This document shows, piece by piece, positions 1-41,067 of a stretch of DNA of 64,000 nt. The notes below the pieces were generated by a model. That model did not search any database. It had not been told where the DNA came from and saw only the letters and a program-made list of their open reading frames with translations. Source of the stretch: Squalus acanthias (Eukaryota); contig CM059431.1 of NCBI GenBank assembly GCA_030390025.1, forward strand, positions 141,672,001 through 141,736,000, written 5' to 3'. The position numbers and the translations under genes are program-made. Numbering within the stretch: position 1 is the stretch's first letter; every line of letters starts with the position of its first letter.

Positions 1-263
1 TGTTACAGAATCAATTCCCATCAGTTTCTTTGAAGCCAATAACTGAATATATTTCTAACGGGTTGGTTGGAGGAACATGATCCATCTGCATGTTTTTATC
101 ATTTGATTTGAAATGAGTACTCATAAAAGTATTTGGGTGGGAATTTACTGGATAACAGCACAGCTGTCAATGTTTGCGTAATATTTTCCTGCAGCCAAAG
201 CACACATTGATAACCTGGAACTGTGCGGCGAAGAATCATAAAGGGGAAAAAAGTTAAAAACTT

Positions 264-337
264 CGTCCGTGGGTCGGCTCAAACCACAAACTTTGCGCTT
301 AACAGCCGAACATGCTAACCGATTACGTCACAAAGAC
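264..337 (-). pseudogene. tRNA-Asn-GTT: Decayed tRNA-Asn(GTT) gene
   Basis: Reverse complement GTCTTTGTGACGTAATCGGTTAGCATGTTCGGCTGTTAAGCGCAAAGTTTGTGGTTTGAGCCGACCCACGGACG aligns end to end with vertebrate tRNA-Asn(GTT) as I recall it, with about 12 substitutions (T-loop TTCGA>TTTGA, broken stems). T-runs follow on the minus strand (Pol III terminator-like, 247-260). Confidence 0.85.
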
Positions 338-1134
338 CGCCAGATCGGTTACTGCAAAATCCCCTAAACCAGGGTGTCAGAGAGTTAAAGTTACAGATTG
401 CTGCGACCGGAGTAGCAATTGCCCACTCTCAGTTTTACATTTCCAAATTAAAGAATGGGACATTCATTGTGAGCACACAGAGACTGTCTGGTCCCGCACA
501 CTGCAGACACACCCATGGCACCGTGAACCAGCTCTCCTGCAACCGGTGCCGTCTCCCTTCCAGACTTTCGGTGCCTTGTTTGATTGTGAAGTAATCTGAT
601 TGTCCCGATTTTAATTTCTGATCAGGACTAATGAGAAACCATTAAATGGCTCGGAACAGTAAATTGCACAGATAAAATAATTACATTTTGTGGAAGATGT
701 GTATAATATGATCCGTTGCTCCACTGGGCCAGGGCGGAACTTACAAACTTGGACAGGTGGAATAGTTGGGAGCAACTTTCAATGTTCAATGACCCACCGT
801 AAAATATATTCTGGATAGAAGAAGGAGAACCCTTTTTTTTTAGTTTCAAGAATTAACAGATGATAAAAACATCCAAGGTGCCCCTTTGTGTGTTTATTGA
901 GCTATAACTGCACTGTTCATGCGATGTACTCTGCCTTGGTCCGGATCTTATACTTAATAATTAATGGTGGCCTCAATCCGGTGTCAGGACTGAACCTAAC
1001 AGATTCAAAGGGGAGTGAGACTCTCTTGAGCAGGTTGTCTCATTTCATTTCCTATTGAATTCAACTTGAACACTGTTTCACAGTCCAAAATTCTCCTGTT
1101 CGGAACCCCCCACCCGACCGTGCTTTCCACCGAC

Positions 1135-4100
1135 ACATTGAGAGCGCGGACCTGAGCGGGAGCGGAGGCAACGGCAGCAGCAGAAAGGGACGTGAGCGGC
1201 GAATCAAAGAAAACACAAGGCGTGACGTTACAGGATAGCTGGTAACTGATTGTTTTTTTTCTCTTCAATTACGGGGTGGGGTTAAATAGCTGCTTGGGGA
1301 TAAAGTAGGAGCTTGGAGATTAGCAACTGTTAATACTATGTTAAATTAGTAACTGTTAATACTATGTTAAATTAGTAACTGTTAATACTATGTTAAATTA
1401 GTAACTGTTAATCCTATATTAAATTAGTAACTGTTAATCCTATATTAAACTAGTAACTGTTAATACTATGTTAAATTAGTAACTGTTAATACTATGTTAA
1501 ATTAGTAACTGTTAATACTATGTTAAATTAGTAACTGTTAATCCTATATTAAACTAGTAACTGTTAATACTATATTAAATTAGTAACTGTTAATACTATG
1601 TTAAATTAGTAACTGTTAATACTATATTAAACTAGTAACTGTTAATACTATGTTAAATTAGTAACTGTTAATCCTATGTTAAATTAGTAACTGTTAATAC
1701 TATGTTAAATTAGTAACTGTTAATACTATGTTAAATTAGTAACTGTTAATACTATGTTAAATTAGTAACTGTTAATACTATATTAAATTAGTAACTTTTA
1801 ATACTATGTTAAATTAGTAACTGTTAATACTATGTTAAATTAGTAACTGTTAATACTATATTATTTTAATTTCTTGAATTAGATACATCTTAGTCTTAAG
1901 TTTCTGTAAAGTTAGTTAATAGTCGAATAAATAAAGGCATGGCAGGGCAGCTCGGTGGAATGCGCATGCTGTGCCATGTGGGAACTCCAGGACGCGTCCA
2001 GTATCCTGGACAACCACATGTGCAGGAGGTGATGTCAGCCAGAGGAGCTCGAGCTCCGGGTATCAGAGCTTAAACAGCCGCTGGCATCACTGCGGTGCAT
2101 CCACAAGGCTGAGAGCTACGTGGAAAGCACGTTTCAGGAGGTGGTCACCCCGCAGCTAAGGAGAGTGCAAGCAGAGAGGGAATGGGTGACCAGCAGACTG
2201 AAAAGGAGAACCAGGCAGGTAGTGCAGGAGTCCCCTCTGCATCTCGCTCTGCAACCAGTATTCTTTTCTGAGTACTGGCGAGAGCGATGGTTCCTCTGGG
2301 GAGTACAGCCAGAGCAAAGTCCATGACATCACGCGTGGCTCAGCTGTGCAGGGGTGAGGGAGAAATATAGGGAAAGCAATAGTGGTAGGGGATTCGATAA
2401 TTAGGGGAGCAGACAGGCGTTTCTGCGGCCACAGACGACTCCAGGATGGTATGTTGCCTCCCTGGTGCCAGGGTTAAGGATGTCACCGAGCGGCAGCAGA
2501 ACATTCTGAGGGGCGAAGGTGAGCAGCCAGAGGTTGTGGTCCATATTGGTACCAACGACATAGGTAGAAAGAGGGATGAGGCCCTGCAAGCAGATTACAG
2601 GGAGCTTGGAAAGAGATTAAAAAGCACTGGATTATTCCCAGTGCCAAGCGTGACTGAGTATAGAAATAGGAGGACAGAGCAAATGAATGCGTGGCTAGAG
2701 AGATGGTGCAGGAGGGAGGGCTTCAGATTCCTGGGACATTGGGGCCGGTTCTGGGGGAGGTGGGACCTGTACAGTCCGGACGGATTGCACCTCAACAGAG
2801 CCGGTTCCAATATTCTCACGGGGAGGTTTCCTAATGCTGTTGGGGTTGTTTAAAGCTAAACTGGCAGGGGGATGGACACCAGTATGTAGCATTAGAAGGA
2901 GAAACAAAGTGCACAAAGGATTGGGACAGACGGATAGCACTAAAGTAAGAAATAGTAAGGTATTTGGTGGGCTCAGCCTAAGAGAGAACACAGGATGGTC
3001 TAAGATAGGTTTACAGTGTATGTATGTGAACGCCCGAATTATTGTAAACAAGGTTGGTGAGCTGCAGGCGCAAATAGCCACATGGGAATATGATGTCGTG
3101 GCAATAATGGAGACCTGGCTCAAAAAAGGGCAGGATTGGATATTAAATATTCCTGGACATAAGGTGTTCAGGAAAGATAGGAGGTGTGGTGGCAGTATTG
3201 GTTAAGGAGAATGTTACAGTGCTGGAGAGAGAGGATGTCCTGGAGGGGTCAAGGACAGAATCTATATGGCGAGAGTTAAGAAGCAATAGAGGTACCGTTA
3301 CACGACTAGGTGTATTCTATAGGCCACCAACTAGTGGAAAAATATGGAGGAGCAAATTTGCAGAGAAATTACAGAGAAATGCAAGAACTATAGAGTAGTG
3401 ATAATGGGGGACTTCAACTATCCTAATATAGACTGGGATAGTAATAGTGTAATGAGCAGAGACGGGGAAGAATTTCTGAAATGTGTTCAGGAGAACTTTC
3501 TTGATCAATATGTTTCCAGTCCAACGAGGGAGGAGACATTCCTGGGTCTGGGTCTGGGGAAAGAAGTCGGTCAAGTGGAGCAAGTGTCAATAGGTGAACA
3601 TTTAGAGCACAGTGATCATAGTATCATAAGGTTTAGATTAACTATGGAAAAGGACAGGGAGCAATCTAGAGTAAAAATAATTAATTGGAAGAAGGGCAAT
3701 TTCAGTGGGATGCGAACGGATCTGGCTCGGATAAATTAGAATCATAGACCGGCAGGCAAAACTGTAATGGAACATATGGGCTGCCTTTAAAGAGGAAATA
3801 GTTCGGGTACATCGAAGTACATTCTCACTAAGGGGAATGGTAGGGCAACCAAAGTCAGAGCTCCCTGGATGACAAAAGAGATAGAGAGTAAGCTGAAACG
3901 GAAAAAGAGCGCGTATAACAGATGTCAGGTCGAGAATGCATCTGGGAATCAGGCTAAATATAGAAAGATCAGAGGAGCAGTGAAAAGGAAAATAAGAGGG
4001 ACTAAGAGAGGTTATGAGAATAGAGTGGCAGCCAACATAAAAGGTAATTCAAAAGTCGTCTATAGGCATTTCAATATTAAACGGGTAGTAAGAGGATGGG

Positions 4101-4379
4101 GGGTGGGGGAATCAGGGACCAAAAAGGAGACCTATGCATGGAAGCAGAGGGTATGGCTGAGGTACTAAATGAGTACTTTGCATCTGTCTGTACCAAGGAA
4201 GAAGATGCTGCCAAAGTCATAGTGAAAGAGGAGATAGCAGAGATACTGGATGGGCTTAGAATTGATAAAGACGAGGTACCAGAAAGACTGGCTGTAATTG
4301 AAGTAGATAAGTAACCAGGACTGGATGGGCTGCATCCTAGGACGCTGAGGGAAATGAAGGAACAAATCGCAGAGGTACT
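1135..4379 (+). mobile_element. CR1 LINE, 5'-complete but 3'-truncated (5'UTR, ORF1 with SGNH esterase, ORF2 endonuclease part), decayed
   Basis: ORF1 starts near 1939 with a Cys-rich start, then GDSIIRG...VCCLPGARVKDV...VVVHIGTND...DGLHLN (SGNH blocks). ORF2 APE motifs CMYVNAR, ETWL, MGDFNYPNIDW and SDH follow, with frameshifts. It stops abruptly after PGLDGLHPRTLREMKEQIAEVL, before the RT core. The 5' boundary is approximate. Confidence 0.9.
1325..1862. repeat. AT-rich 26-bp minisatellite (GTTAATACTATGTTAAATTAGTAACT), ~20 copies, upstream of CR1 ORF1
   Basis: Directly visible tandem units. Confidence 0.95.
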
Positions 4380-5736
4380 CGCCCATCTTCCTTGCTGTGG
4401 GCTTCTCTGAGGAGTTTCAGGATGTCCCCGGGATCTGGAGTCAGGAATTGTGAGAGTGCGGCTACAAACTCTTGGATGGTGAGGTGCGGGAATGTGTACA
4501 CCACGCTCTGGGCAGAATCAGCTCTCTCCAAAAGTTCCATCATGAACCCAGACAGGAACTGGGAAGGTTGCAGATTGTACTTGATCAAATCTCCATTTCT
4601 AAACACAATCTTCTTCTCGGAGACTCCAGTGAAGGCCATCTCACCAAGCTTCAGTAACACATCACGGGGGCTTTCAATCTCTCGACCGTGGTTTTTCAGA
4701 ATGTTGTAGATATAGTAGGAATATAGTTGGGTGATGGTCCTGGGAAGTCGCTGCTGATTCCTGTCTCTTTGTGTAAAGAAGGGACCCAGTGCTAGACCGA
4801 GGATGAAGCAGTAGGAAGGGTTGTAGCTCATGGTGTACAGGATCTCGTTCTCCTCCACGTGTTTGAAAACTGCTGCTGCCACCGTCTGATCTTCAAAATA
4901 CTTGTTGAAATATTCCTTCCGTTCTTCACCAACAAATCCCAGGATTTCAGCCCAGACACGGATCTCAGCCTTTTCCAATAAATGTAATGCAGTGGGGCGG
5001 CTGGTCACTAGCACTGAACATCCTGGGAGCAGCTTGTGCTGTATTAAACTGTACACAATGTCAGACACTTCACACCAGTCCTCGGGATCTGTGCACATGG
5101 ACTGAGGTTCTGTATTTCTCCGATTGTCAGCAAAATCGATACTGTCCTTGAATTCATCCAGCCCATCGAATATAAACAGCAATCCCTCTGGGTTCTTCCA
5201 GAGCTCTCCCAGAATATTCCCAAAGTAAGGATACAGATCCAGTATCAGATTCCTCAGGTTTATTCCACAGTTAATAGCGTTCAAATCCCGGAATTTAAAG
5301 CTGAAAACAAATTGAAAGTGTGGGTATATTTTCCCAGTGGCCCAGTCATGAACAATCTTTTGTACCATTGTTGTTTTTCCAATCCCCGGGACTCCGCTCA
5401 CTGCTGCTGAACTCCCAGAATTGGATTGCCGGAAGAAACTCTGAATTTTCTGGAACAAACCTCCTCTCCGGGAAAAACTGCTCTGGAAAAATTGATCAGT
5501 TCGGATTTTTTCCAGTTCTCCCCGGAGATGTTGCTCTCTCCACTCTTCATGGTCTCGGCCTCTTGCCAGCAGTTCATGTTCTGCAAGTGTCCGATCTCGA
5601 ACAGTAGAAATGACCGTTAGCTCAGCGTATCGATCAACCAGCTGCAAAATCTTAACCTTCTCCTTTATTAGGATAGTGTTCACTCTCAGTGTTTCAGTTT
5701 GTACCCGGAGTGTTTCCTTGTGTTTCTGTTGAACAT
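4337..5736 (-). CDS. NLR-A coding exon 5: NACHT NTPase plus winged helix, truncated in HD2; last ~13 codons and stop come from antisense CR1
   Basis: Acceptor gaag|ATGTTCAA (phase 1, DVQQKHKETL). Motifs: RYAELTVIS, Walker A GVPGIGKTT, Walker B LLFIFDGLDE, VLVTSRP, WAEILGF, YNPSYC, FPHLTIQEFVAA. No internal stops. Confidence 0.93.
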
Positions 5737-6186
5737 CTTCAATTAGAAGAGACAGAAAGTGGTTCTCAATGTTAGTTGTATTGACAAAAAAACAACTTCT
5801 CAACACCCCTTTATTATTCATTGAAATGTTGCAAGTATGAATTTACAGCTTTAATAGACGTGTGTGTAGAAATTAAACTCAGTTAATGGAAACCTGGCCT
5901 TAAAGTGAGCAATGGCTGAGAAAAATTTCAAACCCTCACTTGATTCTAACATTCACTGAAGATGGAGATTACTATGAAGGTGATTTTTTCCCTCTGATGG
6001 TTAATACTGTCCGACCTGCCCTGTGCTATAGAAATCTCATTATAAATCCACACATGATCCTGGTTATATGACAGCAGTGGTTCTAGTGGATCAATATGTG
6101 AAACGGTCAGTGGAGTTTCCCTTCTGCCGCAATGGATTGGTTGCACATCGAGAGGGGCAATGTGCAAAAGATCCACTGTTACTCTA

Positions 6187-6365
6187 TCAGGCCTTGGGCA
6201 GGTTATCTGGGGTAGTGTGGGCACTGGGAGAGGGACAGTCTGTGAATGTACAGAAGTTCCACCGATAGTGTGTCAGGTCCTGGGCAGGTTATCTGGGGTA
6301 GTGTGGGCACTGGGAGAGGGAGACTGTGAAAGGAGAGAACTTCCACCGTTATTGTGTCAGGTCCT
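6187..6365. repeat. ~85-bp tandem duplication (~2 copies), NLR-A intron
   Basis: GGGCAGGTTATCTGGGGTAGTGTGGGCACTGGGAGAGGGA is repeated. Confidence 0.85.
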
Positions 6366-7429
6366 GTGTGTGCTTCTAATTACCTAATCACAGGAAGAAT
6401 GTTATTGTAATGGTGAAGATGCAGAGAGAAATAAGATGATTATGCCACAATTAAGGCAGAGGAAAGGGTGCGGTGTTAGATTTGGTTCGTTTGGAATTAG
6501 AGACTTTGGATATTGAATTATTGATCAGAATTTCTAACGGAATTCACAAAATTAATGCCAGAATGAAATTAATAATGATCACAATTAATTAAGAGAAAAG
6601 TGACACTAAGATGCCAGGAGAAAGAAGGGAAGTCAGGGTAATCTTTTTCACCAAAGAGTAATAGAGTGGGAGATCAGTTACCAGGGAGGACACTAAGGGG
6701 CAGTGTAATTGGGAACAAGAGACAATTGGTTGTGTTTCTGTGGATACTCAGAGGAGGGGCAGGTGGGTTCATCTCTAACAGGGACAGACTTGTTTGGACC
6801 AAAGTGACCTTTTGTTCCCCTAAACATCCTCCTGTTGTGTTTCAGAAAATGTGAACAGTTTTGCAGTAATTTTACACCTATATTATTTTTATATAAAAGT
6901 CTCGTCAGAAAACCGATCAGAATCAGAAATAGAACTACTGCCCACTTCACTCAGTATTACGTCAGGGAAGAAAAGACAGAGTTAATTTCAACAGTTACAA
7001 TTATTACATTCTATCGTTTCATTTGGATACGAGTTTCCTACAATGTAGTTTTGAAAATTACAAATATGTTTTTGATAATCAGTAAATTGGGAATCAAAAG
7101 CCTCCTGAATGAAAGGACGCTTCCTTCAGTACAACAAGTTTCTCTGTGCCTAGTTTGTCTGTTTCTCTGCCAGTGTGAATCGGTCCAATCAGTTTCTAAT
7201 CACGCATAACATTGCCTTTATCTCATGTACCTCCTCGGTTAATGTTTGATTGAGTGAACATCTGTAGAGCTTCTCAGATTGGATTGAACACGATTAGACG
7301 GTTCATGACGTGAGGCACAATGGTAATACTTAAATCTTTCCCATTTCTCGGCCACTCTTCCGACAGTTTGTGCTGGATAGAAACCCAGGGGCAGAGTAAC
7401 TTCCACATCAGGCTCAAGGACCTATGTCA

Positions 7430-8625
7430 CAGGGTATAATGATCTGGCCAGGTGTCTATGGAGTTTCACAGTGTATCAGGATGCTGCCAGGGGTTCATGT
7501 TTTAGGATCCTGCAAGTTGTGTCTGGTGATTCACAATGTCAGGTTCCGTACAGGTGTGTATGGAGTTTCAGTGTATCAGGATCCTGCCAGGTGTGTATGG
7601 GGTTTCACAGTGTATCAGGGTCCTCCTAGTTGTGTATGGGGTTTCACAGTGTATCAGGATCCTGCCACGTGTGTATGGGGTTTCACAGTGCATCAGAATC
7701 CTGCCAGTTGTGTATGGGGTTTCACAGTGTATCAGGATCCTGCCAGGTGTGTATGGGGTTTCACAGTGCATCAGAATCCTGCCAGGTGTGTATGGGGTTT
7801 CACAGTGTATCAGAATCCTGCCAGGTGTGTATGGGGTTTCACAGTGTATCAGAATCCTGCCAATTGTGTATGGGGTTTCACAGTATATCAGGATTCTGCC
7901 AGGTGTGTATGCGGTTTCACAGTGTATCAGGATCCTGCCAGGTGTGTATGGGGTTTCACAGTGTATCAGGAATCTGCCAGGTGTTTATGGGGTTTCACAG
8001 TATATCAGGATCCTGCCAGGTGTGTATGGGGTTTCACAGTGTATCAGGATCCTGCCAGGTGTGTATGGGGGTTTCACAGTGTATCAGGATCCTGCCAGGT
8101 GTGTATGGGGTTTCACAGTGTATCAGGAATCTGCCAGGTGTGTATGGGGTTTCACAGTGTATCAGGAATCTGCCAGGTGTGTATGGGGTTTCACAGTGTA
8201 TCAGGATCCTGCCAGGTGTGTATGGGGATTCACAGTGTATCAGGATCCTGCCAGGTGTGTATGGGGTTTCACAGTGTATCAGGATCCTGCCAGGTGTGTA
8301 TGGGGTTTCACAGTGTATCAGGAATCTGCCAGGTGTGTATGGGGTTTCACAGTGTATCAGGAATCTGCCAGGTGTGTATGGTGTTTCACAGTGTTTCAGG
8401 ATCCTGCCAGGTGTGTATGGGGTTTCACAGTGTATCTGGATCCTGCCAGGTGTGTATGGGGTTTCACAGTGTTTCAGGATCCTGCCAGGTGTGTATGGGG
8501 TTTCACAGTGTATCTGGATCCTGCCAGGTGTGTATGGGGTTTCACAGTGTATCTGGATCCTGCCAGGTGTGTATGGGGTTTCACAGTCTATCAGGATCCT
8601 GCCAGGTGTTTATGGGACTTCACAA
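7430..8625. repeat. 39-bp minisatellite (GGGGTTTCACAGTGTATCAGGATCCTGCCAGGTGTGTAT), ~30 copies, NLR-A intron 4
   Basis: Visible tandem units; produces spurious 13-aa repeat ORFs in all three + frames. Confidence 0.95.
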
Positions 8626-8893
8626 GTGATAGAGATCAGCAGCTGGATTTTGTGAAATGATAGTAACGTCCGCATATTTACAGGAAATGTCAGAAATGGT
8701 CTGAATTGTATCTTGAACCAATACAGAATAGTTTTGGATTGATGACAAATCTAAATGACATCCAATCCTATTTGTCCAGTCTTTGAACTTCTGATTCCCA
8801 GATTCTGACAACCTCTAAAGAAAGGGCTACAGTCAAACATTCTGATTCTCAGAAGTGAGATAATAGTTTTTAAATCTGAATTTCCTCAATTAC

Positions 8894-8959
8894 CTTTCAG
8901 GTGCATGGGTATTTCGGATAAACCTCGTGCGATGTTCATATAATCAAATGGACTGGAAC
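8894..8959 (-). CDS. NLR-A coding exon 4 (linker, GSSPFDYMNIARGLSEIPMHLK)
   Basis: ttaaacag|GTTCC...CTGAAAG|gtaatt; 66 nt, phase 1/1; keeps frame between exons 3 and 5. Confidence 0.85.
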
Positions 8960-9062
8960 CTGTTTAAATCAATTAACTTTCATGAAATCAGATCTGTGTA
9001 ATATTATAGTAAAGTCTTCAGTGTTTAAATTAATATTTGAATTCAGTGTGATTTTACCGTAC

Positions 9063-9234
9063 CGTGTTCCTGTATTTCTTTCAGTATTTTGTCCAGCTTT
9101 GGTACCCCATGGCGCATTTTCACAAAGGATTCCCACATCACCCTTCGGGCCCTAGAGCCTTTCTCCATCACCAGGTTTAGGAGAAGTTTGGAACTGTCCG
9201 CCCGGTTTCCCTTCTCCACGAGATCAGTGACTTT
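9063..9234 (-). CDS. NLR-A coding exon 3 (C-terminal half of CARD-like death fold)
   Basis: ttacag|AAAGTC...GAACACG|gtacgg; KVTDLVEKGNRADSSKLLLNLVMEKGSRARRVMWESFVKMRHGVPKLDKILKEIQEHG; phase 0/1. Confidence 0.88.
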
Positions 9235-10009
9235 CTGTAAAGAATAATAATGAATGTATTGAGGAGCGGAGAATGAGAGGGAAAGGATCTGCTTTGTGAT
9301 GGGATCTCCCAGTTGTTTTGAGCTGAGAAAGCAATCACTGGGCCGGGTACTGACACATTCTGAACATGGGCTGAATATTCGGTAAACATCTTGATTCACC
9401 ATTAACGACAAAGAAATGTGATGAATTATGTTTCCAGGAGAGAAAGGAATCACTGAGAATCTGCAGCAGTTTGAATGTGATTCGTTTTCTCTCTCCTTTC
9501 GTGTCCAACATGACATCAGATTACTGATTGACGATATGATACACTCGTTTCTCACATTTTTTCCTGGTGCCGCACTTTGTGATTTAATTAGAAATAAAGC
9601 AGTAGCGAGTCAGAACTCCAGTTACAGGGAAGGAACGAATCTGAAGTGAGAGAAACAGCGAGAAAACTGTCTGAAAAATTATCGCTGACTAATCGAAACA
9701 ATCACTGTTGATGTATCGGCGGGCCGGAGAATCGACCAATTAAAATAAAGATGAGAAATCAAATCATTTGTTCCCTCGGTAATTAAAATGGCACCCATTA
9801 TTTGACACATCCGCTGCCGGTATGAAACCTCGGTAACCGGGAACAGATATCAGCAATGGGGTTGGTATAGTCAGGACTTTCTTCCTCAAAGCTTAGATTT
9901 ATATAACACCTTTAAAGCAGAAAATAAATCGTCGAAAGGCACTTCACAGAGGTGCAATCAGACAATGGATACAGAGACGGCGAGGCGTCGAGTACGAGAG
10001 CGTGTTGAT

Positions 10010-12010
10010 TAAGTTACTGGACGAGTAATCCAGAGATAATGGTTCAAATCAATTCGTTGTCGTTTCCTGAATTTGAATTTATATTCGAATCTGAAACATT
10101 TCAAAATAAATAGCTGGTATTAGTAAAGATTGTCGTAAAACCTAATGTCCTTTACGTCTGGTCTATACGTGACTCCAGTCCTTCACCAATGTGGTGGCCT
10201 CTCAAATGGCGGAGAAAGCCTCTAGAAAGAAAGATATAGAAGAATAAAACCAGGCGGACCGCTCGGCTTCGGCACTGGATTCAGAGACGACAAAGGGACA
10301 CCCAGCCCAGTCAATCCTGTAAAGCCCCCCTCACTAACTCCTGGGGACTGGTGCCAAAGTAGGGAGCAGTGGACCACATAATAGTCAAGCAACGTTCTGA
10401 TGTAGTGATAGTTATAAAATCATATTTATCAGCCAACGTCTCAGGCTCCTCCATCAGCATTCATCGGTATTTCCTGTCCCACCGCAGGACAGACCCACCA
10501 GTGGTGGGTCACAGTGATATACCCTCAGGTGCAAGTGCCCTGGGAATCATTAACTTTGACTCCGGAGCCAATGAAATCTCATGCCTTCAGGTCAAACATG
10601 TGCAAGGAAACCTCCTGTTGATTCCCACCTTCCCTCAGCCAATTAATCAGTACTCCTCAATTTTGAACACAACTTGAAGGAAGCACTAAAGGTACCAAAA
10701 GGTGCAGAATGTACATTAGGTGGGAGATTTCATGTCTATTTCCCAGCTAATTCGATATCAAGAAAAAAATGAATGCACTGCGCACAGCAAATGCTACAGG
10801 TCCCAACAACGTTCCGGCTGTAGTGTTGAAGATCTGTGCTCTGGAACTAACTGCACCTCTAGTCAAGTTGTTCCAGTACATCCAGAACACTGGTGTCTAC
10901 CCAACAATGTAGAGAATTGTCCAGGTATGTCCTGTCCACAAAAATCAGGACAAATCCAACCCATGCAATTACCGCCCTATCAGCCTGCTCTCAATCATCA
11001 TGAAAGTGTTGGAAGGAGTCATCAACAGTGTTATCAAGCAGCATTTAATCACAAATAAACTGCTCACCGAGGCTCAATTTGAGATCCACCAGGACCAATC
11101 GGCTCCAAACATGGACCAAAGAACTGAATTCCAGCTGAGGTGAGAGTGACGGTGCTTAACATCAAGGCAGTGTTCGACGTGTGTGGCACCATGGAGTGTG
11201 GTTGTTGGAGGCGAATCGTCTCAGCACCAGGACATCACTGCAGGAGTTCCTCGGGGCAGAGTCTTCGGACTAACTATTTCAGCTGCTTCATCAATTACCT
11301 TCCCTCCATCATAAAGCCAGGAGTGGGGATGTTCACTGATGATTGCACACAGTGTTCAGCTCCATTTTCAATTCGTCAATGGTCGCATGCAGCAAGTCCT
11401 GGACAAAATCCAGGCTTGGGCGGACAAGTGGCAAGTAACATTCGCGCCACACAAATGCCAGGCAATGCCCATCTCCCACAAGAGTGTCCAACCATGTCCA
11501 TTTGTCATTCAGTGGCATTGCCAACGTCTATTCCCTACCATTGACTAGCCACATAAATCTCGTGGCTACGAGAGCAGGTAAGAGGCTGGGTATTCTGTGG
11601 AGAGTGTCTCACCTCCTGGCCACCCAGAAGCCTCTCCTGCACCTACAAGGTACAACTGCGGTGTGTGATGGAAAACTCTCCACTTGCCTGGATAGGTGCA
11701 GCTGCAACAACACTCAAAAAGATCCACGCAATCCAGGACAAATTAATACCCTTGATCGGCAGTCCACCCGCCACCTTAAACAGCCATTCCCTCCACCAAC
11801 GGTGCACCATAGCTGCAGTGTGTACTATTTACAGAAAGCACTGCAGCAGTTCACCAAGGCTTCTTTGACAGCACCTCCCAAACACGCGCCCTCTGCCACC
11901 TAGAAGGACAAGAACAGCATGTGCATGGGAACCCCATCAGCTGCAAGTTCTACTTCAAGTCAGAGACCATCCTGAATTGAACATATATCGCCGTTCCTTC
12001 ATCGTCACTG
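10010..12010 (+). mobile_element. Heavily decayed LINE (CR1/L2 group) with a tRNA-SINE-like 5' segment
   Basis: Remnants VKQRSDVVIVIKSYL (endonuclease), GMFTDDCT (RT), QVLDKIQAWADKWQVTFAPHKCQAM and MENSPLAWIGAAATTLKK. 10010-10230 resembles the SINE at 61.25 kb. Confidence 0.7.
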
Positions 12011-12204
12011 TAAATTGAGAGCCAAAACGTCCAGCGCCGGCTACAGAGGGAACAGGACAAGCAACAGAATGTTTCCTTAACCAATCAGATTGAGGAATCC
12101 TTACTGATGCTCGCAAAGTCTGAACCAGAAACTTTCAGTTAGGATAAAGAATTGAATGACAGATCACGTGCAGAAAGTGAAATAAAGAGGGAAAGAAAGA
12201 TTGA

Positions 12205-12585
12205 TTCAGATTGGATCTCACTGAAACATACAAAATTCTTACAGGGCTCGACAGGGTAGATGCAGGGAGGATGTTTCCCTGGCTGGGGAATCTAGAATCA
12301 GGGGTCACAATGTCAGAATAAGGGGTCGGCCATTTAGGACTGAGGTGAGGAGAAATTTCGTCACTCACAGGCTGGTGAATCTTTGCAATTATCTACCCCA
12401 GAGGGCTGTGGAGGCTCAGTCGTTGAATATATTGAAGACAGAGATCGATAGATCTTTGAATATTAAGGGAATCAATGGATATCGGGGATAGTGCAGGAAA
12501 GTGGAGATGAGGTGGAAGATCAGCCATGGTCTTATTGAATGGCGGAGCAGGCTCGAAGGGACATTTGGCCTGCTCATGTTTTTAT
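12205..12585 (+). mobile_element. CR1 3'-end fragment
   Basis: Matches 3' ends of other CR1 copies in the window (e.g. 35800-36180). Confidence 0.85.
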
Positions 12586-13779
12586 GTTTAGAGGGAGCGA
12601 AAATAGAGACAGAAGGAAAAGGTACAGACATGGATTCTTTTTTGTTTGTACAGCTCCAACAATAATTACAATCCAAAGGAATGCGACTACACACTTGTAA
12701 AAGTTAATTTTCTGTGCCAGAGAGGTTGTCTGGCATTAGTTAAGACTGATCACGCCGTTAAACAAATAAGTACACTGGAACAGGCAAGCCCTGACTTTTC
12801 CTGGCGAGTTCCATGTGTATCTATTAGTTAAGTACAGTAATGTTACGCCATTCCATGCATTTCAATGGCGAGTCTCTCGGCGAGATACCATTCTCGCGCA
12901 GCTTTTGGAGCAGCAGGGCAACTCGGACAGGACCTTCCTGATTTTCGTGTTTAACTCCGCATGTGCGGTCGCTGGAAATTACTGTCCAATTTACACTTTA
13001 ATAACAGTGAGCGCTGTTAGCCCCACCGTTATTTCTACTGCAAAATCTGGTCTGTTACAAAAATATGAAACTAACAATATTTCATCCCCCAGTCACTCAC
13101 TCTGAACAAAATGATACAGAAACCAAACCATTAAAGTGAGCGGATGGAAAATGACAGACTGAGAAATCTCAATTTCCTGATGTTCCTCCCTGGGAGGTGA
13201 CGTCCCACACCAAGAGCACAGGGGCTGGTAATTTACCCAGTAGTGTATAATTTTGGACAATCTATTTATACAATGTAAAAGCAATGGAAAAACTGGCGTG
13301 CCATTGCACTAGGATGTTAGCAGGGCTGTGGAGTTACTGTTAGAGACTGCGATTTGAGAACGTTGGACTCATTCCACTAGAGGTGAGCAGATTAAGTGAG
13401 GAGTTGCTGCAAGTCTTCAGATTCTGAAGTTACGATCAAAAAAATTGTTACTGATAGTTTCCACTGATTGGTCATAGGGCACATATTTCGGCTAATTCGA
13501 AGAATTCGCGGTGAAGGTTGATAAATTTATTTAAACTCGAGGCGGTTAGAAAGCATAATCCAATCGCACAGACTATTGTGGAAGCAAGTCGACAATTTTT
13601 TGAAAAAATCTATTTCTATTGCTGCATGGATAGAAAGGAATGCTGGAGTATCGAGAGTGAACAGAAGATTGCACCTGGACTAATTGGGATACTAATCATA
13701 ATGCGGTCAGCAGGAGTTTGGGATTAGATGGGCTTTTTTAAGGACACCAAATGGACAGGAAATTGTCATTAGATCCAGA

Positions 13780-16700
13780 GGCATATTAACAGTAATGGGT
13801 AGTGAGCAGGAGGTTGGGATTAGACTAGGTGCGATATTAACGGTAATGGGCAGTGAGCAGGAGGTTGGGATTAGACTAGGTGGGATATTAACAGTAATGC
13901 GTAGTGAGCAGGAGGTTGGGATTAGACTAGGTGGGATATTAACGGTAATGGGCAGTGAGCAGGAGGTGGGGATTAGACTAGGTGGGATATTAACGGTAAT
14001 GGGTAGTGAGCAGGAGGTTGGGATTAGACTAGGTGGGATATTAACGGTAATGGGCAGTGAGCAGGAGGTTGGGATTAGACTAAGTGGGATATTAACAGTA
14101 ATGGTAGTGAGCAGGAGGTTGGGATTAGACTAGGTGTGATATTAACAGTAATGGGTAGTGAGCAGGAGGTTGGGATCAGACTAGGTGGGATATTAACGGT
14201 AATGGGTAGTGAGCAGGGGGTTGGGATTAGATTAGGTGGGATATTAACGGTAATGGGTAGTGAGCAGGAGGTTGGGATTAGACTAGGTGGGATATTAACA
14301 GTAATGGGTAGTGAGCAGGGGGTTGGGATTAGACTAGGTGGGATATTGACGGTAATGGGCAGTGAGCAGGAGGTTGCGATTAGACTAGGTGGGATATTAA
14401 CGGTAATGGGTAGTGAGCAGGAGGTTGGGATTAGACTAGGTGGGATATTGACGGTAATGGGCAGTGAGCAGGGGGTTGGGATTCGACTAGGTGGGGTATT
14501 ACGGTAATGGGTAGTGAGCAGGAGGTTGGGATTAGACTAGGTGGGGTATTAACGGTAATGGGTAGTGAGCAGGAGGTTGGGATCAGACTAGGTGGGATAT
14601 TAACTGTAATGGGCAGTGAGCAGGAGGTTGGGATTAAACTAGGTGGGATATTAACAGTAATGGGCAGTGAGCAGGGGTTGGGATTAGACTAGGTGGGATA
14701 TTAACGGTAATGGGTAGTGAGCAGGAGGTTGGGATTAGACTCGGTGGGATATTAACGGTAATGGGCAGTGAGCAGGAGGTTGGGATTAGACTAGGTGGGA
14801 TATTAACGGTAATGGGTAGTGAGCAGGAGGTTGGGATTAGACTCGGTGGGATATTAACGGTAATGGGCAGTGAGCAGGAGGTTGGGATTAGACTAGGTGG
14901 GATATTAACGGGAATGGGTAGTGAGCAGGAGGTTGGGATTAGGCTAGGTGGGATATTAATGGTAAAGGGTACTGAGCAGGTGGTTGGGATTAGACTAGGT
15001 GGGATATTAACGGAAATGGGGAATGAGCAGGACGTTGGGATTCGGCTAGGTGGGATATTAACGGTAAAGGGTACTGAGCAGGTGGTTGGGATTAGACTAG
15101 GTAGGATATTAACGGTAATGGGTAGTGAGCAGGAGGTTGGGATTAGACTAGGTGGGATATTAACGGAAATGGGCAGTGAGCAGGAGGTTGGGATTAGACT
15201 AGGTGGGTTATTAACAGTAATGGGGAATGAGCAGGAGGTTGGGATTAGACTGGGAGGGATATTAACGGTAAAGGATACTGAGTAGGTGGTTAGGATTAGA
15301 CTAGGTGGGATATTAACGGGAATGGGCAGTGAGCAGGAGTTTGGGATTAGACTAGGTGGGATATTAACGGTAATGGGCAGTGAGCAGGAGATTGGGATTA
15401 GACTAGGTGGGATATTATCAGTAATGGGTTGTGAGCAGGAGGTTGGGATTAGACGAGGAGGGACATTAACAGTATTGGGTAGTGAGCAGAAGGTTGGGAT
15501 TAGACTCGGTGGGATATTAACGGTAATGGGTAGTGAGCAGGAGGTTGGGATTAGACGAGGCGGGATATTAACGGTAATGGGCAGTGAGCAGGAGCTGGTG
15601 ATTAGACTAGGTGTGATATTACCAGTAATGGGTAGTGAGCAGGAGGTTGGGATTAGACTAGGTGGGATATTAACGGTAATGGGTAGTGAGCAGGAGGTTG
15701 GGATTAGACTCGGTGGGATATTAACGGTAATGGGCAGTGAGCAGGAGGTTGGGATTAGACTAGGTGGGATATTAACGGTAATGGGTAGTGAGCAGGAGGT
15801 TGGGATTAGACTCGGTGGGATATTAACGGTAATGGGCAGTGAGCAGGAGGTTGGGATTAGACTAGGTGGGAAATTAACGGGAATGGGTAGTGAGCAGGAG
15901 GTTGGGATTAGGCTAGGTGGGATATTAATGGTAAAGGGTACTGAGCAGGTGGTTGGGATTAGACTAGGTGGGATATTAACGGAAATGGGGAATGAGCAGG
16001 ACGTTGGGATTCGGCTAGGTGGGATATTAACGGTAAAGGGTACTGAGCAGGTGGTTGGGATTAGACTAGGTGGGATATTAACGGTAATGGGTAGTGAGCA
16101 GGAGGTTGGGATTAGACAAGGTGGGATATTAACGGAAATGGGCAGTGAGCAGGAGGTTGGGATTAGACTAGGTGGGTTATTAACAGTAATGGGGAATGAG
16201 CAGGAGGTTGGGATTAGACTGGGAGGGATATTAACGGTAAAGGATACTGAGTAGGTGGTTAGGATTAGACTAGGTGGGATATTAACGGGAATGGGCAGTG
16301 AGCAGGAGTTTGGGATTAGACTAGGTGGGATATTAACGGTAATGGGAAGTGAGCAGGAGATTGGGATTAGACTAGGTGGGATATTAACAGTAATGGGTTG
16401 TGAGCAGGAGGTTGGGATTAGACGAGGAGGGACATTAACAGTATTGGGTAGTGAGCAGGAGGTTGGGATTAGACTCGGTGGGATATTAACGGTAATGGGT
16501 AGTGAGCAGGAGGTTGGGATTAGACGAGGCGGGATATTAACGGTAATGGGCAGTGAGCAGGAGCTGGTGATTAGACTAGGTGTGATATTACCAGTAATGG
16601 GTAGTGAGCAGGAGGTTGGGATTAGACTAGGTGGGATATTAGCGGTAATGGGTAGTGAGCAGGAGGTCGGGATTAGACTAGGTGGGATATTAACAGTAAT

Positions 16701-19700
16701 GGGCAGTGAGCAGGCGGTTGCGATTAGACTAGGTGAGATATTAACGGTAATGGGTAGTGAGCAGGAGGTTGGGATTAGGCTTCGTGGGATATTAACGGTA
16801 ATGGGTAGTGAGCAGGAGGTTGGGATTAGACTAGGTGGGATATTAACAGTAATGGGTAGTGAGCAGGAGGTTGGGATTAGACTAGGTGGGATATTAACGG
16901 TAAAGGGTAGTGAGCAGGAGGTTGGGATTAGACTAGGTGGGATATTAACAGTAATGGGTAGCGAGCAGGAGGTTGGGATTAGACTAGGTAGGATATTAAC
17001 GGTAATGGGCAGTGAGCAGGAGGTTGGGATTAGACTACGTGGGATATTAACAGTAATGGGCAGTGAGCAGGAGGTTGGGATTAGACTAGGTGGGATATTA
17101 ACAGTAATGGGTAGTGAGCAGGGGGTTGGGATTAGATTAGGTGGGATATTAACGGTAATGGGTAGTGAGCAGGAGATTGGGATTAGACTAGGTGGGATAT
17201 TAACAGTAATGGGTTGTGAGCAGGAGGTTGGGATTAGACGAGGAGGGACATTAACAGTATTGGGTAGTGAGCAGGAGGTTGGGATTAGACTCGGTGGGAT
17301 ATTAACGGTAATGGGTAGTGAGCAGGAGGTTGGGATTAGACGAGGCGGGATATTAACGGTAATGGGCAGTGAGCAGGAGCTGGTGATTAGACTAGGTGTG
17401 ATATTACCAGTAATGGGTAGTGAGCAGGAGGTTGGGATTAGACTAGGTGGGATATTAGCGGTAATGGGTAGTGAGCAGGAGGTCGGGATTAGACTAGGTG
17501 GGATATTAACAGTAATGGGCAGTGAGCAGGCGGTTGCGATTAGACTAGGTGAGATATTAACGGTAATGGGTAGTGAGCAGGAGGTTAGGATTAGGCTTCG
17601 TGGGATATTAACGGTAATGGGTAGTGAGCAGGAGGTTGGGATTAGACTAGGTGGGATATTAACAGTAATGGGTAGTGAGCAGGAGGTTGGGATTAGACTA
17701 GGTGGGATATTAACGGTAAAGGGTAGTGAGCAGGAGGTTGGGATTAGACTAGGTGGGATATTAACAGTAATGGGTAGCGAGCAGGAGGTTGGGATTAGAC
17801 TAGGTAGGATATTAACGGTAATGGGCAGTGAGCAGGAGGTTGGGATTAGACTACGTGGGATATTAACAGTAATGGGCAGTGAGCAGGAGGTTGGGATTAG
17901 ACTAGGTGGGATATTAACAGTAATGGGTAGTGAGCAGGGGGTTGGGATTAGATTAGGTGGGATATTAACGGTAATGGGTAGTGAGCAGGAGGTTGGGATT
18001 AGACTAGGTGGGATATTAACAGTAATGGGTAGTGAGCAGGGGGTTGGGATTAGACTAGGTGGGATATTGACGGTAATGGGCAGTGAGCAGGAGGTTGCGA
18101 TTAGACTAGGTGGGATATTAACGGTAATGGGTAGTGAGCAGGAGGTTGGGATTAGACTAGGTGGGATATTGACGGTAATGGGCAGTGAGCAGGGGGTTGG
18201 GATTCGACTAGGTGGGGTATTACGGTAATGGGTAGTGAGCAGGAGGTTGGAATTGGACTTGGTGGGATATTAACGGTAATGGGCAGTGAGCAGGAGGTTG
18301 GGATTAGACTAGGTGGGATATTAACCGGAATGGGTAGTGAGCAGGAGGTTGGGATTAGACTAGGTGGGATATTAACGGTAATGGGCAGTGAGCAGGAGGT
18401 TGGGATTAGACTAGGTGGGATATTAATAGTAATGGGTACTGAGCAGGAGGTTGGGATTAGACTAGGTGTGATATTAACGGTTATGGGTAGTGAGCAGCAG
18501 GTTGGGATTAGACTAGGTGGGATATTAACGGAAATGGGGATGAGCAGGAGGTTGGGATTAGGCTAGGTGGGATATTAATGGTAAAGGGTACTGAGCAGGT
18601 GGTTGGGATTAGACTAGGTGGGATATTAACGGAAATGGGGAATGAGCAGGAGGTTGGGATTCGGCTAGGTGGGATATTAACGGTAAAGGGTACTGAGCAG
18701 GTGGTTGGGATTAGACTAGGTGGGATATTAACGGTAATGGGTAGTGAGCAGGAGGTTGGGATTAGACTAGGTGGGATATTAACGGAAATGGGCAGTGAGC
18801 AGGAGATTGGGATTAGACTAGGTGGGATATTAACAGTAATGGGGAATGAGCAGGAGGTTGGGATTAGACTGGGAGGGATATTAACGGTAAAGGATACTGA
18901 GTAGGTGGTTAGGATTAGACTAGGTGGGATATTAACGGGAATGGGCAGTGAGCAGGAGTTTGGGATTAGACTAGGTGGGATATTAACGGTAATGGGCAGT
19001 GAGCAGGAGATTGGGATTAGACTAGGTGGGATATTAACGGTAAAGGGTAGTGAGCAGGAGGTTGGGATTAGACTAGGTGGGATATTAACAGTAATGGGTA
19101 GCGAGCAGGAGGTTGGGATTAGACTAGGTAGGATATTAACGGTAATGGGCAGTGAGCAGGAGGTTGGGATTAGACTAGGTATGATATTAACAGTAATGGG
19201 TAGTGAGCCGGGGGTTGGGATTAGATTAGGTGGGATATTAACGGTAATGGGTAGTGAGCAGGAGGTTGGGATTAGACTAGGTGGGATATTAATAGTAATG
19301 GGTAGTGAGCAGGGGGTTGGGATTAGACTAGGTGGGATATTGACGGTAATGGGCAGTGAGCAGGAGGTTGCGATTAGACTAGGTGGGATATTAACGGTAA
19401 TGGGTAGTGAGCAGGAGGTTGGGATTAGACTCGGTGGGATATTAACGGTAATGGGCAGTGAGCAGGAGGTTGGGATTAGACTAGGTGGGATATTAACGGG
19501 AATGGGTAGTGAGCAGGAGGTTGGGATTAGGCTAGGTGGGATATTAATGGTAAAGGGTACTGAGCAGGTGGTTGGGATTAGACTAGGTGGGATATTAACG
19601 GAAATGGGGAATGAGCAGGACGTTGGGATTCGGCTAGGTGGGATATTAACGGTAAAGGGTACTGAGCAGGTGGTTGGGATTAGACTAGGTAGGATATTAA

Positions 19701-25597: not shown

Positions 25598-26355
25598 GAG
25601 TAAATTGCCTAGATTATCAACTTGGAAAGTTGGTATCAGGTCGACCGTCCATTATACACCCTGCCCGATTATCATTTCCATTTAGTTCTATTCCATTAAA
25701 GGTAACTGACAGAACATTACAGGCTGCTTGCTGTAATTTCCTGAAGTGCTGTCCCGGGGAGTGACGCTCCACGACAGGTTCTACCGCCCGGATTGAGTCT
25801 CTGCCGAAGTTGGAATTGACCCCCGGTGATGCAGGGGGAGGAAAAACCTGCACAGCCTCGGGTTTTCAATCCACATTTTTGGGGGTTTAGTTGTCCTGTT
25901 TGGGTCTCATACATTTTAGCCATTTTACCCTTTTGTTTTTGTTCTTGAAGAGCCTCTCATTTACTGCGCAGATTATTCTTCTCATCTCTCAGTTCCTTCA
26001 TTTCCATTAAGTAGTTCCAGGTCAGTAAACTCATGACCTTCCATTTAATCCCGGTTACTTGCCTCTGGTCTCTCCTTTTCCCAGTCCCACTAAAACTGTT
26101 TCCCTTTGTTTTCAGTCCACACAAGAGTTATACCAGGACCATTCCCCTGTCCTTTGTACAGATACTGTCGGATCCGCTGGGTATTTTCACCTCTTCATAT
26201 CATAGCTTCAGATTCACAATATTTTCAGTTTTATACATTTCTTTCCTATTTGACCTGTTTCTCTTCTGTAACATTCTATGATTCTAAGATCTGATTTCCT
26301 GTCAGTTCTGTGATGTTTGAATAATTCAAACTCATTCTGTGTCCCTCCCACTCAC

Positions 26356-26522
26356 CCGATGTTCTTGTCCACTGAAATGCCTCTCATATGTTAACAACGA
26401 GCTGACTCCGTCCACCCCTCCTTCAATCGCCTGTTCCAGTCTGGCCCGGTAGAATTTCGTGAACTGGAACAGCTGGTAATCGTCGCACTTTGTCAAGAAC
26501 TCAGTGATTGTAGAGTTCGGAT
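26356..26522 (-). CDS. NLR-A coding exon 2 (N-terminal half of CARD-like death fold)
   Basis: gttcacag|ATCCG...CATCGG|gtgagt; DPNSTITEFLTKCDDYQLFQFTKFYRARLEQAIEGGVDGVSSLLTYERHFSGQEHR; 167 nt, phase 1/0; paralogue at 62787-62953. Confidence 0.9.
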
Positions 26523-26699
26523 CTGTGAACACAAATGGAGAAAATTAAACACATTATCCACTTTCTGCCCAGCTGCTACATTTCATCTTATACCAAACGG
26601 CTAAAGCTTCCTGTAAGCCACATTATCAATCACCTTCAGAAAACCCATACGCACGTCATGTACGACATTCCTTTGACCTGTATATAGTCACGTCTCAAC

Positions 26700-27680: not shown

Positions 27681-28289
27681 CGTAAAATTGTCATATACGA
27701 CTTTTCTACAGCTAATCCGTTCCAGCCTCCCCTCATCACCCTCTTTATTGCTAAATGCTCATGAATTCGAACTGGATTAACAGATTTGAGGAGTTTTGAC
27801 ACAATAGTCTCTGGTTACCAGATTGATCCTCTCTCCACATTATAACAGAATCATCACTTGGGCTCCTTCAGTCCACCTGAATATTTTTGATATCAAACGT
27901 GGGTTGAAATGCTGTGCTCAGTCCCTCCTATCTCCTCTCTGACTTCCTTTAACAGTCTGGGGTGCATTATTTCTGAGCCCAGTGACTTCTCCACCTCGGC
28001 TACTTTACTCAGATCCAAATCCTTCTCTACAGTGATCTTCACTGTGGATCCACATCCTCCTCTAGTACAACAACATTCTCACTTCAACCATCATTTTAGA
28101 AAGTAAAGGAAATATTTTGTATCTCCCCAAAATTGCATCCTCCACAACTAGTTTCCCCAGGCCCCCCTCTATCTGCCCTCCACTGCTTGCTGGCCTGCAA
28201 AACCCACTGAGAATTGTACTGTCTCCCTTCCTATTGCTGAACTGCATACATATGGATTCCATCTTATCATAGCTCCCTGGAACACCCGT

Positions 28290-30975: not shown

Positions 30976-30994
30976 GGAGGGACGTGACTTGTTG

Positions 30995-41058: not shown

Positions 41059-41067
41059 GATCGATCT

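What the first reader, a model, noticed from the sequence alone, without database searches (positions are those of the whole stretch)
4337..5736. LRR-less NLR created by fusion to an antisense CR1, with all exons still in frame
Seen: the NACHT exon reads ...HSKEDGR and runs directly into antisense CR1 ORF2 (VPLRFVPSFPSAS*). All five exons have canonical GT-AG sites and splice to 1869 nt (622 aa) with intact Walker A and B. A minus-strand AATAAA lies at 893-898. Known: LRRs autoinhibit NLRs and sense ligand, and LRR-less NLRs exist (NLRP10). Inference: a stop in the last exon would escape NMD, so this may be a constitutively active or dominant-negative CARD-NACHT protein with a transposon-derived C-terminus and 3'UTR.
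Basis: partly seen in the sequence, partly recalled or inferred. Interest (0 to 1): 0.7.

Follow-up and report, generated by a model that had tools for sequence, protein, structure and literature searches.

The report
Shark NLR gene truncated against a LINE
One copy of a hugely expanded shark immune-sensor (NLR) gene family has lost its back half at a breakpoint that abuts a dead retrotransposon, and it is most likely a young gene relic, not a new kind of always-on sensor.

Summary
On the minus strand, five coding exons with canonical GT-AG sites splice to 1869 nt (622 aa). The NACHT exon stops matching its paralogues at window 4379. It then reads 13 codons and a TAG from the antisense interior of a LINE.

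- The cut removes the LRRs and about two thirds of the HD2 helical domain. By analogy with published NLRP3 truncations, this predicts an assembly-incompetent protein, not a constitutively active one.
- This is not a transposon insertion. The LINE lacks its 3' part at the junction. The rest of the exon and all LRR exons are absent from 44 kb downstream.
- The junction joins two unrelated segmental-duplication blocks inside a large NLR cluster.
- The copy is young: 97.9% identical to its nearest paralogue, with 11 private substitutions. An open frame is therefore expected by chance.
- 5 of the 11 nearest paralogues carry frameshifts, so broken copies are common in this family.
- No other locus in this genome shares the junction.
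- No reads or transcripts specific to the junction could be obtained.
- The "CARD" and "CR1" labels remain unverified.

Verdict: an ordinary, recently truncated family member, probably a pseudogene.

The parts
29704..29767 (-). Coding exon 1 (ATG at 29767; MAEGPNRGEDPTSSKKLRMDT), donor GT
   Evidence: tblastn of P0007/P0009/P0016; exon model. An AG lies 35 nt upstream of the ATG, so a further upstream 5' exon is possible.
26356..26522 (-). Coding exon 2 (first half of the helical N-terminal domain), AG/GT
   Evidence: tblastn 81-88% identity to homologues; model
9063..9234 (-). Coding exon 3 (second half of the N-terminal helical domain), AG/GT
8894..8959 (-). Coding exon 4 (linker, GSSPFDYMNIARGLSEIPMHLK), AG/GT
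4379..5736 (-). Retained part of the large NACHT exon: pre-NACHT region, NBD with Walker A/B, HD1, winged helix and the first ~36 residues of HD2. It ends ...SKEDGR.
   Evidence: Pfam NACHT and NOD2_WH; 93-98% DNA identity to 39 other genomic copies; homology stops at 4379
4337..4378 (-). LINE-derived coding tail: 13 codons (VPLRFVPSFPSAS) plus TAG, read from the antisense strand of LINE ORF2
   Evidence: Alignment of window, LINE sister copy L017 and NLR paralogue
4379..4383 (.). Junction. Base 4379 is shared by both parents, and 4 of the 5 bases 4379-4383 fit both. It sits inside a longer imperfect similarity (GGAAGAT..GG.C.A on the minus strand).
1940..4383 (+). 5' part of a degenerate LINE: ORF1 N-terminal region ~2033-2326, GDSL-esterase domain 2401-2853, APE endonuclease 3335-3739, pre-RT linker up to 4383. 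Several frameshifts. The reverse transcriptase and the 3' end are missing.
   Evidence: Pfam Lipase_GDSL_2 E=4.2e-13 and Exo_endo_phos_2 E=1e-10; 95.8% identical sister copy L017 runs on past the junction into RT-like ORFs
1..1939 (.). Rest of the left duplication block, including a 26-bp tandem array at 1319-1863. It is collinear with C3498:871 kb and C7:144.65 Mb.
893..898 (-). AATAAA hexamer, 3.4 kb downstream of the stop
   Evidence: 1 found, 1.5 expected
4379..45706 (.). Right duplication block (~41 kb) holding the whole truncated gene. It is collinear with C7:143.765-143.804 Mb, where the paralogue keeps the full NACHT exon and the LRR exons.

Best explanation
This is a recently truncated member, most likely a young pseudogene, of the very large NLRP3-like NLR expansion of sharks. 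A non-homologous rearrangement, helped by a few bases of microhomology, occurred inside a segmentally duplicated NLR cluster. It joined the middle of the big NACHT exon to the middle of an already dead LINE lying in the opposite orientation.

Everything 3' of codon ...DGR was lost from the locus: two thirds of HD2, the exon's splice donor and all LRR exons. The frame now runs 13 codons into antisense LINE sequence and meets a TAG.

Shown: the junction as assembled, the missing parts, the two unrelated duplication blocks, and the youth of the copy. Inferred: that the event was an end-joining deletion or a duplication breakpoint; that the open frame reflects youth and not selection; and that any protein made would be unable to assemble a signalling oligomer.
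For: 1. Breakpoint. 39 of 39 other scored genomic matches to window 4180-4580 cover only the NACHT side, starting at window 4379. Only the window itself spans the junction.
2. Not an insertion. The LINE is cut at its 3' side. Its sister copy continues into RT-like ORFs, and that continuation is found nowhere else in the window at high identity.
3. Missing parts. tblastn with three full-length homologues finds no HD2-remainder or LRR hit in the window, and none in the next 40 kb downstream. Two intact-locus comparisons have LRR exons 1.2-8 kb after the NACHT exon.
4. Two blocks. Window 4379-45706 is collinear with C7:143.77 Mb at 91-98% identity. Window -9000 to 4383 is collinear with C7:144.64-144.66 Mb and C3498:871 kb at 88-97% identity. 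The two blocks share nothing with each other.
5. Youth. The NACHT exon differs from the nearest paralogue at 29 of 1353 sites. The window has 11 private substitutions, 4 synonymous and 7 non-synonymous. 64% of random 11-substitution trials stay free of stops.
6. Family decay. 5 of the 11 nearest paralogues carry frameshifting indels in this exon, including the nearest one.
7. Truncation point. P0007 residue 626 lies inside HD2 (591-702). There is no HD2 Pfam hit in the window's frame. The cut maps to about residue 556 of NLRP3. NLRP3 constructs ending at 541, 572 or 665 are inactive, even on gain-of-function backgrounds (PMC6281599).
Against: All five coding exons are open, with canonical splice sites and intact ATPase motifs. 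The nearest paralogue, by contrast, is frameshifted.

The private-substitution dN/dS is about 0.5, below 1. With 4 versus 7 changes this is not significant.

Short gene models of this family are annotated in other sharks and rays. 13 of 120 near-length homologues end at or before the end of the NACHT exon, and one (P0152) ends inside HD2 at the equivalent of residue 659. Truncated forms may therefore be tolerated or used.

The 41-kb block carries about 16 kb upstream of exon 1, so a promoter may be present. Expression of this locus was not tested either way.
Confidence: 0.72

Rival explanations
1. The truncated gene is transcribed and makes a 622-aa protein (N-terminal helical domain plus NBD-HD1-WHD). 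This protein acts as a decoy, adaptor or dominant-negative partner of intact paralogues. Its C-terminal tail and 3' UTR come from the LINE.
For: The frame is open and the splice sites and Walker motifs are intact. The stop lies in the last recognisable exon. Upstream sequence is duplicated along with the gene. RNA-labelled runs of the same organism hold NACHT-family contigs, so the family is expressed. LRR-poor models are annotated in related species.
Against: The junction is unique to one locus in this genome and is very young, so nothing indicates retention by selection. The cut falls inside HD2 and not at a domain border. No RNA contig specific to this locus was seen, and the RNA contigs laid carry paralogue letters, for example at 4521. 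There is no 3'-end signal above chance.
Confidence: 0.15
2. The junction is an assembly artefact: a chimeric join of two loci within a highly repetitive NLR cluster. The real gene is complete.
For: Both sides belong to duplication blocks with 94-98% identical copies elsewhere. No second copy of the junction exists in the assembly. No read or contig bridging 4379/4380 was listed.
Against: False joins arise inside sequence shared by two loci. Here a NACHT exon abuts a LINE interior with only 1-5 shared bases. The window has no N. The contig is chromosome-sized at 159.8 Mb. The DNA runs available hold only 2.0-4.5 billion letters for a 3.7-billion-base genome, so they could not be expected to show a single-copy junction.
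Confidence: 0.07
3. Loss of the autoinhibitory LRRs makes the product a constitutively active NLR.
For: The passages read note reports of partially constitutive activity of LRR-truncated NLRP3 when over-expressed in HEK293 or THP-1 cells. That LRR deletion activates some other NLRs (NLRC4, NOD2) is recalled and comes from no call.
Against: The truncation also removes most of HD2. In the NLRP3 series, constructs ending at or before residue 665 could not assemble an inflammasome, even with activating mutations (PMC6281599). The window's cut maps to about residue 556. A constitutively active death or inflammation trigger would be expected to be selected against (inference).
Confidence: 0.04

Closest known systems
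Shark/ray 'NLRP3-like' NLR expansion (NLRP-related family reported as expanded in whale shark, PMC8455134)
   Same: The NACHT exon is 85-92% identical in protein to annotated NLRP3-like proteins of Heptranchias perlo, Scyliorhinus, Mustelus and others. The exon layout matches theirs. The gene lies in a multi-megabase cluster with many near-identical copies. The paper (passages read) describes a lineage-specific expansion and suggests birth-death or concerted evolution.
   Different: This copy lacks two thirds of HD2 and all LRRs and ends in LINE-derived codons. All 120 near-length homologues list an HD2 Pfam domain.
Engineered NLRP3 truncations (miniNLRP3 1-686 versus 1-665, 1-572, 1-541; PMC6281599)
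   Same: Domain content: effector domain plus NBD-HD1-WHD without LRR. The window's cut aligns to about residue 556 of NLRP3.
   Different: Those are laboratory constructs of a mammalian protein that is only distantly related (phmmer E=8e-44 over 320 residues). The comparison is an analogy and not a test.
NLRP10, the natural LRR-less NLR
   Same: It has an N-terminal effector domain plus NACHT and no LRR.
   Different: NLRP10 is a conserved gene with a complete NACHT-associated region (recalled). The present junction is private to one locus in one genome and cuts inside HD2.
Vertebrate LINEs with an esterase-type ORF1 (CR1 subgroup 7 / L2 subgroup 9; PMC4120745)
   Same: A GDSL-esterase domain sits upstream of an APE endonuclease. 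The paper (passages read) finds this ORF1 type only in those two vertebrate subgroups.
   Different: CR1 versus L2 was not resolved here. The copy is degenerate and lacks its RT and 3' end.

Membership tests
NLR (NACHT-LRR) protein | NACHT NTPase domain with Walker A and Walker B | tested here: met
   Pfam NACHT E=4.7e-37; GIGKT and LLFIFDGLDE present
NLR (NACHT-LRR) protein | Winged-helix domain following the NBD/HD1 | tested here: met
   Pfam NOD2_WH E=3.5e-13, residues 394-451 of P0001
NLR (NACHT-LRR) protein | Complete helical domain HD2 | tested here: not met
   No NLRC4_HD2 hit in P0001. In P0007, HD2 spans 591-702 and the cut is at residue 626.
NLR (NACHT-LRR) protein | C-terminal leucine-rich repeats | tested here: not met
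   No tblastn hit to homologue residues beyond 646 in the window or in 40 kb downstream
   No Pfam family at E<=1 on the N-terminus of P0007 or on exons 2 and 3. Atlas feature search gives CARD clusters at only 0.76-0.78, which the tool rates as a lead only. PDB phmmer gives only spurious repeat-protein hits. The single-sequence AlphaFold model is five helices but has mean pLDDT 57, too low to search with.
Natural LRR-less NLR gene (NLRP10-like) | Conserved, recurrent architecture retained across loci or species | tested here: not met
   Only the window itself spans the junction among 40 scored matches of 4503 candidates. No near-length protein ends at or before the cut (0 of 120). Other species' DNA was not examined.
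CR1 LINE | APE endonuclease followed by reverse transcriptase in ORF2 | tested here: inconclusive
   The endonuclease is present (Exo_endo_phos_2, E=1e-10). The RT part is absent from this copy. The sister copy has RT-like ORFs that were not run through Pfam.
CR1 LINE | Placement in the CR1 and not the L2 clade | not tested
   The esterase ORF1 fits either CR1 subgroup 7 or L2 subgroup 9 (PMC4120745). No RT phylogeny was made. The Pfam scan of 2033-2326, upstream of the esterase, found nothing.
Transposon insertion into an exon | Element's 3' end present and host exon resuming on the other side | tested here: not met
   The LINE is cut at its 3' side at 4383. No NACHT remainder lies to the left.

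The most novel reading that the evidence does not exclude
A newly born, expressed NLR fragment (helical N-terminal domain plus NBD-HD1-WHD, with no HD2 or LRR) borrows its last 13 codons, stop codon and 3' UTR from an antisense LINE. It acts as a decoy or brake on its many intact paralogues. This would be a snapshot of how regulator genes arise from rearrangement debris in a fast-turning immune gene cluster.
Probability: 0.08. Interest if true: 0.5.

Novelty: new member of a known kind. Interest (0 to 1): 0.2.

Why it matters
Large NLR clusters evolve by birth and death. This locus is a clean, datable example of a death or remodelling event: the breakpoint is resolved to the base, both parental blocks are identified, and the frame is still open. 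It helps genome annotators, because a 622-aa "NLR" model here should be flagged as truncated. It is also an example of rearrangement within shark immune gene clusters. It would become interesting only if junction-spanning transcripts, or the same junction under constraint in other individuals or species, were found.

Tried and rejected
- **Reads.** The look-up of sequencing runs listed 24 runs and no RNA holder. Read laying on 2000-7300 with two DNA runs and two runs guessed to be RNA returned only short contigs. None of the listed pieces bridges 4379/4380, 6639 pieces were not shown, and contigs at 4521 carry the paralogue letter. This gives no verdict on either the junction or expression.
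- **Simple LINE insertion.** Rejected.
- **NLR block pasted into a LINE, with the LINE remainder at the block's other end (~45.7 kb).** Not supported. The remainder of sister copy L017 matches the window only at 64-69% identity, in other LINE copies.
- **Deletion versus duplication breakpoint.** Not resolved. The 30 kb downstream of the nearest paralogue share nothing with the window's left side.
- **N-terminal domain.** Pfam, PDB sequence search (only designer pentatricopeptide hits built from many sub-threshold repeats) and a single-sequence fold (pLDDT 57) gave no classification. No fold search was run on that model.
- **Pfam on the spliced 622-aa model.** Replaced by per-exon references and the stored homologue.
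- **Whole-genome file.** Not available.
- **Earlier findings of this scan.** None.
- **Selection test.** With 4 synonymous and 7 non-synonymous private changes it has no power.
- **Supplementary files** of the cited papers were not opened.

Full report
**What the window is**

The window is G000:C7:141672001-141736000 of a 3.7-billion-base genome in 3882 contigs. Proteins most similar to the NACHT frame are shark and ray "NACHT, LRR and PYD domains-containing protein 3-like" models. The best is a 935-aa Heptranchias perlo protein, P0007, at 92% identity. In that search 1001 proteins had E<=0.001 among 8000 scored candidates, and 120 were listed. No annotated protein is identical: the best among near-length proteins is 88%. 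The window is dense with LINE fragments and satellites.

**Checking the observation**

The minus-strand frame 5842-4337 translates to a NACHT protein that ends ...LLREAHSKEDGRVPLRFVPSFPSAS*. Pfam finds NACHT (E=4.7e-37) and the NOD2-type winged helix (E=3.5e-13), but no HD2 and no LRR.

tblastn with three full-length homologues places five collinear minus-strand pieces. Refined on the sequence, the coding exons are:
- 29767-29704
- 26522-26356
- 9234-9063
- 8959-8894
- 5736-4337

Every intron has GT...AG. The total is 1869 nt, giving 622 aa plus the stop. Walker A, Walker B and the winged-helix histidine motif are present. An AG lies 35 nt upstream of the ATG, and MDWGER-like frames lie at 33.3-34.3 kb. 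P0007 begins MDWGER..., so an additional upstream exon is possible; it was not pursued.

The AATAAA at 898-893 exists. It is the only one in 4336 nt, where 1.5 are expected from composition.

**The junction**

A 401-base query across the junction found 40 scored matches in the genome, out of 4503 first-look candidates. Only the window itself covers the whole query. The 39 others start at query base 200, which is window 4379, at 98-99% identity.

On the other side, a sister copy of the LINE on contig C3498 (locus L017) matches window 1787-4383 at 95.8% identity and then continues with its own sequence.

The three-way alignment shows the following on the minus strand:
- NLR paralogue: ...GAAGATGGGCGA TTTGAG...
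- Window: ...GAAGATGGGCGA GTACCTCTGCG...
- Antisense LINE: ...GAAGATTATGGCCA GTACCTCTGCG...

One base (4379) is strictly shared, and four of the five bases 4379-4383 fit both parents. Both parents carry a GGAAGAT...GG.C.A patch at this point. That pattern is what end joining with microhomology leaves behind (inference). The apparent LRFV match to the paralogues' FLRFV is coincidental. Those codons are the antisense of the LINE's ...EQIAE... stretch, which is conserved in other LINE copies in the window.

**What the transposon is and what it did**

On the plus strand, the element has these parts:
- an ORF1 N-terminal region (2033-2326; no Pfam hit);
- a GDSL-esterase domain (2401-2853; E=4.2e-13);
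- an APE endonuclease (3335-3739; E=1e-10).

It then stops at 4383, before the reverse transcriptase. Its ORF2 is spread over several frames, so the copy is dead.

According to passages of PMC4120745, an esterase-type ORF1 occurs only in one CR1 subgroup and one L2 subgroup of vertebrates. "CR1" is therefore plausible but not shown.

The key point is that the element lacks its 3' part at the junction, whereas LINE insertions keep their 3' end (established knowledge). The missing remainder occurs nowhere else in the window at high identity; only other copies at 64-69% are found. The rest of the NACHT exon is not on the element's far side. So this is not an insertion.

**What was lost**

In P0007 the winged helix spans residues 532-589 and HD2 spans 591-702. 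The cut corresponds to residue 626. About one third of HD2 is kept. The rest of the exon (to residue 765), its donor site and all LRR exons are gone.

Two paralogous loci show the normal layout. LRR exons lie 4.4-5.2 kb (C1406) and 1.2-7.8 kb (C7:143.76 Mb) after the NACHT exon. In the window there is no such hit in the 4.3 kb left of the stop, and none in the next 40 kb on either strand.

**Two duplication blocks**

Window 4379-45706 is collinear at 91-98% identity with C7:143.765-143.804 Mb, 2.1 Mb away. Collinearity begins exactly at 4379.

The left side, from at least 9 kb before the window to 4383, is collinear with C7:144.64-144.66 Mb and with C3498:871-876 kb at 88-97% identity.

The 30 kb downstream of the nearest paralogue share nothing with the window's left side. 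The junction therefore joins two unrelated segmental-duplication blocks. Two histories remain possible: a large deletion in a once complete gene, or a copy born truncated at a duplication breakpoint. These could not be separated, because further genome stretches were not available.

**Age and constraint**

The retained NACHT exon has 39 other scored copies at 93-98% identity, out of 386 candidates. I compared it with the 11 closest:
- The nearest (C7:143.765 Mb) differs at 29 of 1353 sites (97.9% identity). It carries three 1-base indels.
- In all, 5 of the 11 have frameshifting indels. The other 6 have no indel and no stop.
- These indels could include assembly errors; this was not checked.

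The window copy has 11 private substitutions, 4 synonymous and 7 non-synonymous. That gives a crude dN/dS of about 0.5, with no statistical weight. In simulations, 64% of sequences given 11 random substitutions remain free of stops. The truncation may also be younger than those 11 changes. An intact frame is therefore the default expectation for such a young copy.

**Likely consequence for the protein**

The retained part aligns to NLRP3 structures over query residues 110-432, which correspond to chain residues 222-537 of 7pzc. The query ends 19 residues later, at about residue 556, assuming no gap (inference).

In the NLRP3 truncation study PMC6281599 (abstract and passages read):
- LRR-less constructs down to 1-686 behave like the wild type and are not spontaneously active.
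- Constructs 1-665 and shorter, including 1-572 and 1-541, do not respond, despite sufficient expression.
- 1-665 and 1-572 are not activated by disease mutations.
- Some partial LRR truncations are degraded.

By this analogy, the shark fragment would bind nucleotide but fail to assemble. That argues against constitutive activity. A decoy role remains conceivable but is unsupported.

**How unusual it is**

Among 120 near-length homologues:
- 42 list no LRR family in the precomputed Pfam column (my count from that table).
- All 120 list HD2.

By alignment to P0007:
- 13 of 120 end at or before residue 790.
- 8 of those end exactly at the exon end (residue 765).
- One ends inside HD2 at residue 659.
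- None ends at or before residue 626.

Truncated models are thus common in annotations of this family, and this one is the most severely cut. The whale shark genome paper describes an expanded NLRP-related family in sharks and suggests birth-death or concerted evolution (PMC8455134, passages read). Relics like this one fit that picture.

**Evidence not obtained**

Read-level support for the junction and locus-specific expression are both missing. The runs offered were contig sets from runs of 2.0-4.5 billion letters (DNA) and about 0.1 billion letters (guessed RNA). The pieces laid were 60-200 bases long, and none of those listed bridges 4379/4380.

The junction is unlikely to be an assembler's false join. 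There is no shared repeat at the joint and no gap. That argument is an inference.

The N-terminal domain is helical (low confidence). It has only a weak CARD lead and no Pfam or PDB sequence match.

**Verdict**

The most likely reading is a young, truncated and probably non-functional member of a very large, fast-turning NLR family. It was produced by non-homologous rearrangement against a dead LINE, not by a transposon-driven innovation.

Noticed in passing
window 59989-60096 (+) and 62777-62953 (+): The first two coding exons of a second NLR gene of the same family lie on the opposite strand. It is head-to-head with the truncated gene and runs out of the window's right end (tblastn).
   Followed up: no
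window 13783-25599: An 11.8-kb satellite of 51-bp units (232 copies, 90% matches) fills most of the 17-kb intron between coding exons 2 and 3. It is open in several frames on both strands and gives spurious ORFs of over 1000 aa.
   Followed up: partly
window 7504-8624: A 39-bp satellite (29 copies) lies in the intron before the NACHT exon. It is also present at the paralogous loci.
   Followed up: partly
window 42014-43171 (+): An uninterrupted 385-aa frame has a DDE_Tnp_4 (Harbinger/PIF-type) transposase domain, E=1.8e-42. It is either a recently active DNA transposon or a domesticated HARBI1-like gene.
   Followed up: partly
G000:C7:143765426-143766781 (locus L019): The nearest paralogue keeps its full NACHT exon and LRR exons but has three 1-base indels in the NACHT exon. 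The two sister copies are disabled in different ways, if the indels are not assembly errors.
   Followed up: partly
window 33320-34282 (-): Repeated MDWGER... frames resemble the alternative N-terminus of homologue P0007. They may be upstream start exons or a small tandem duplication of one.
   Followed up: no
window 44048-45004: A 957-bp segment matches the paralogous region at 98.2% identity, but inverted and about 40 kb out of place (paralogue coordinates 27953-26998). It overlaps a LINE RT frame, so it is a recent mobile-element copy or a small inversion.
   Followed up: no
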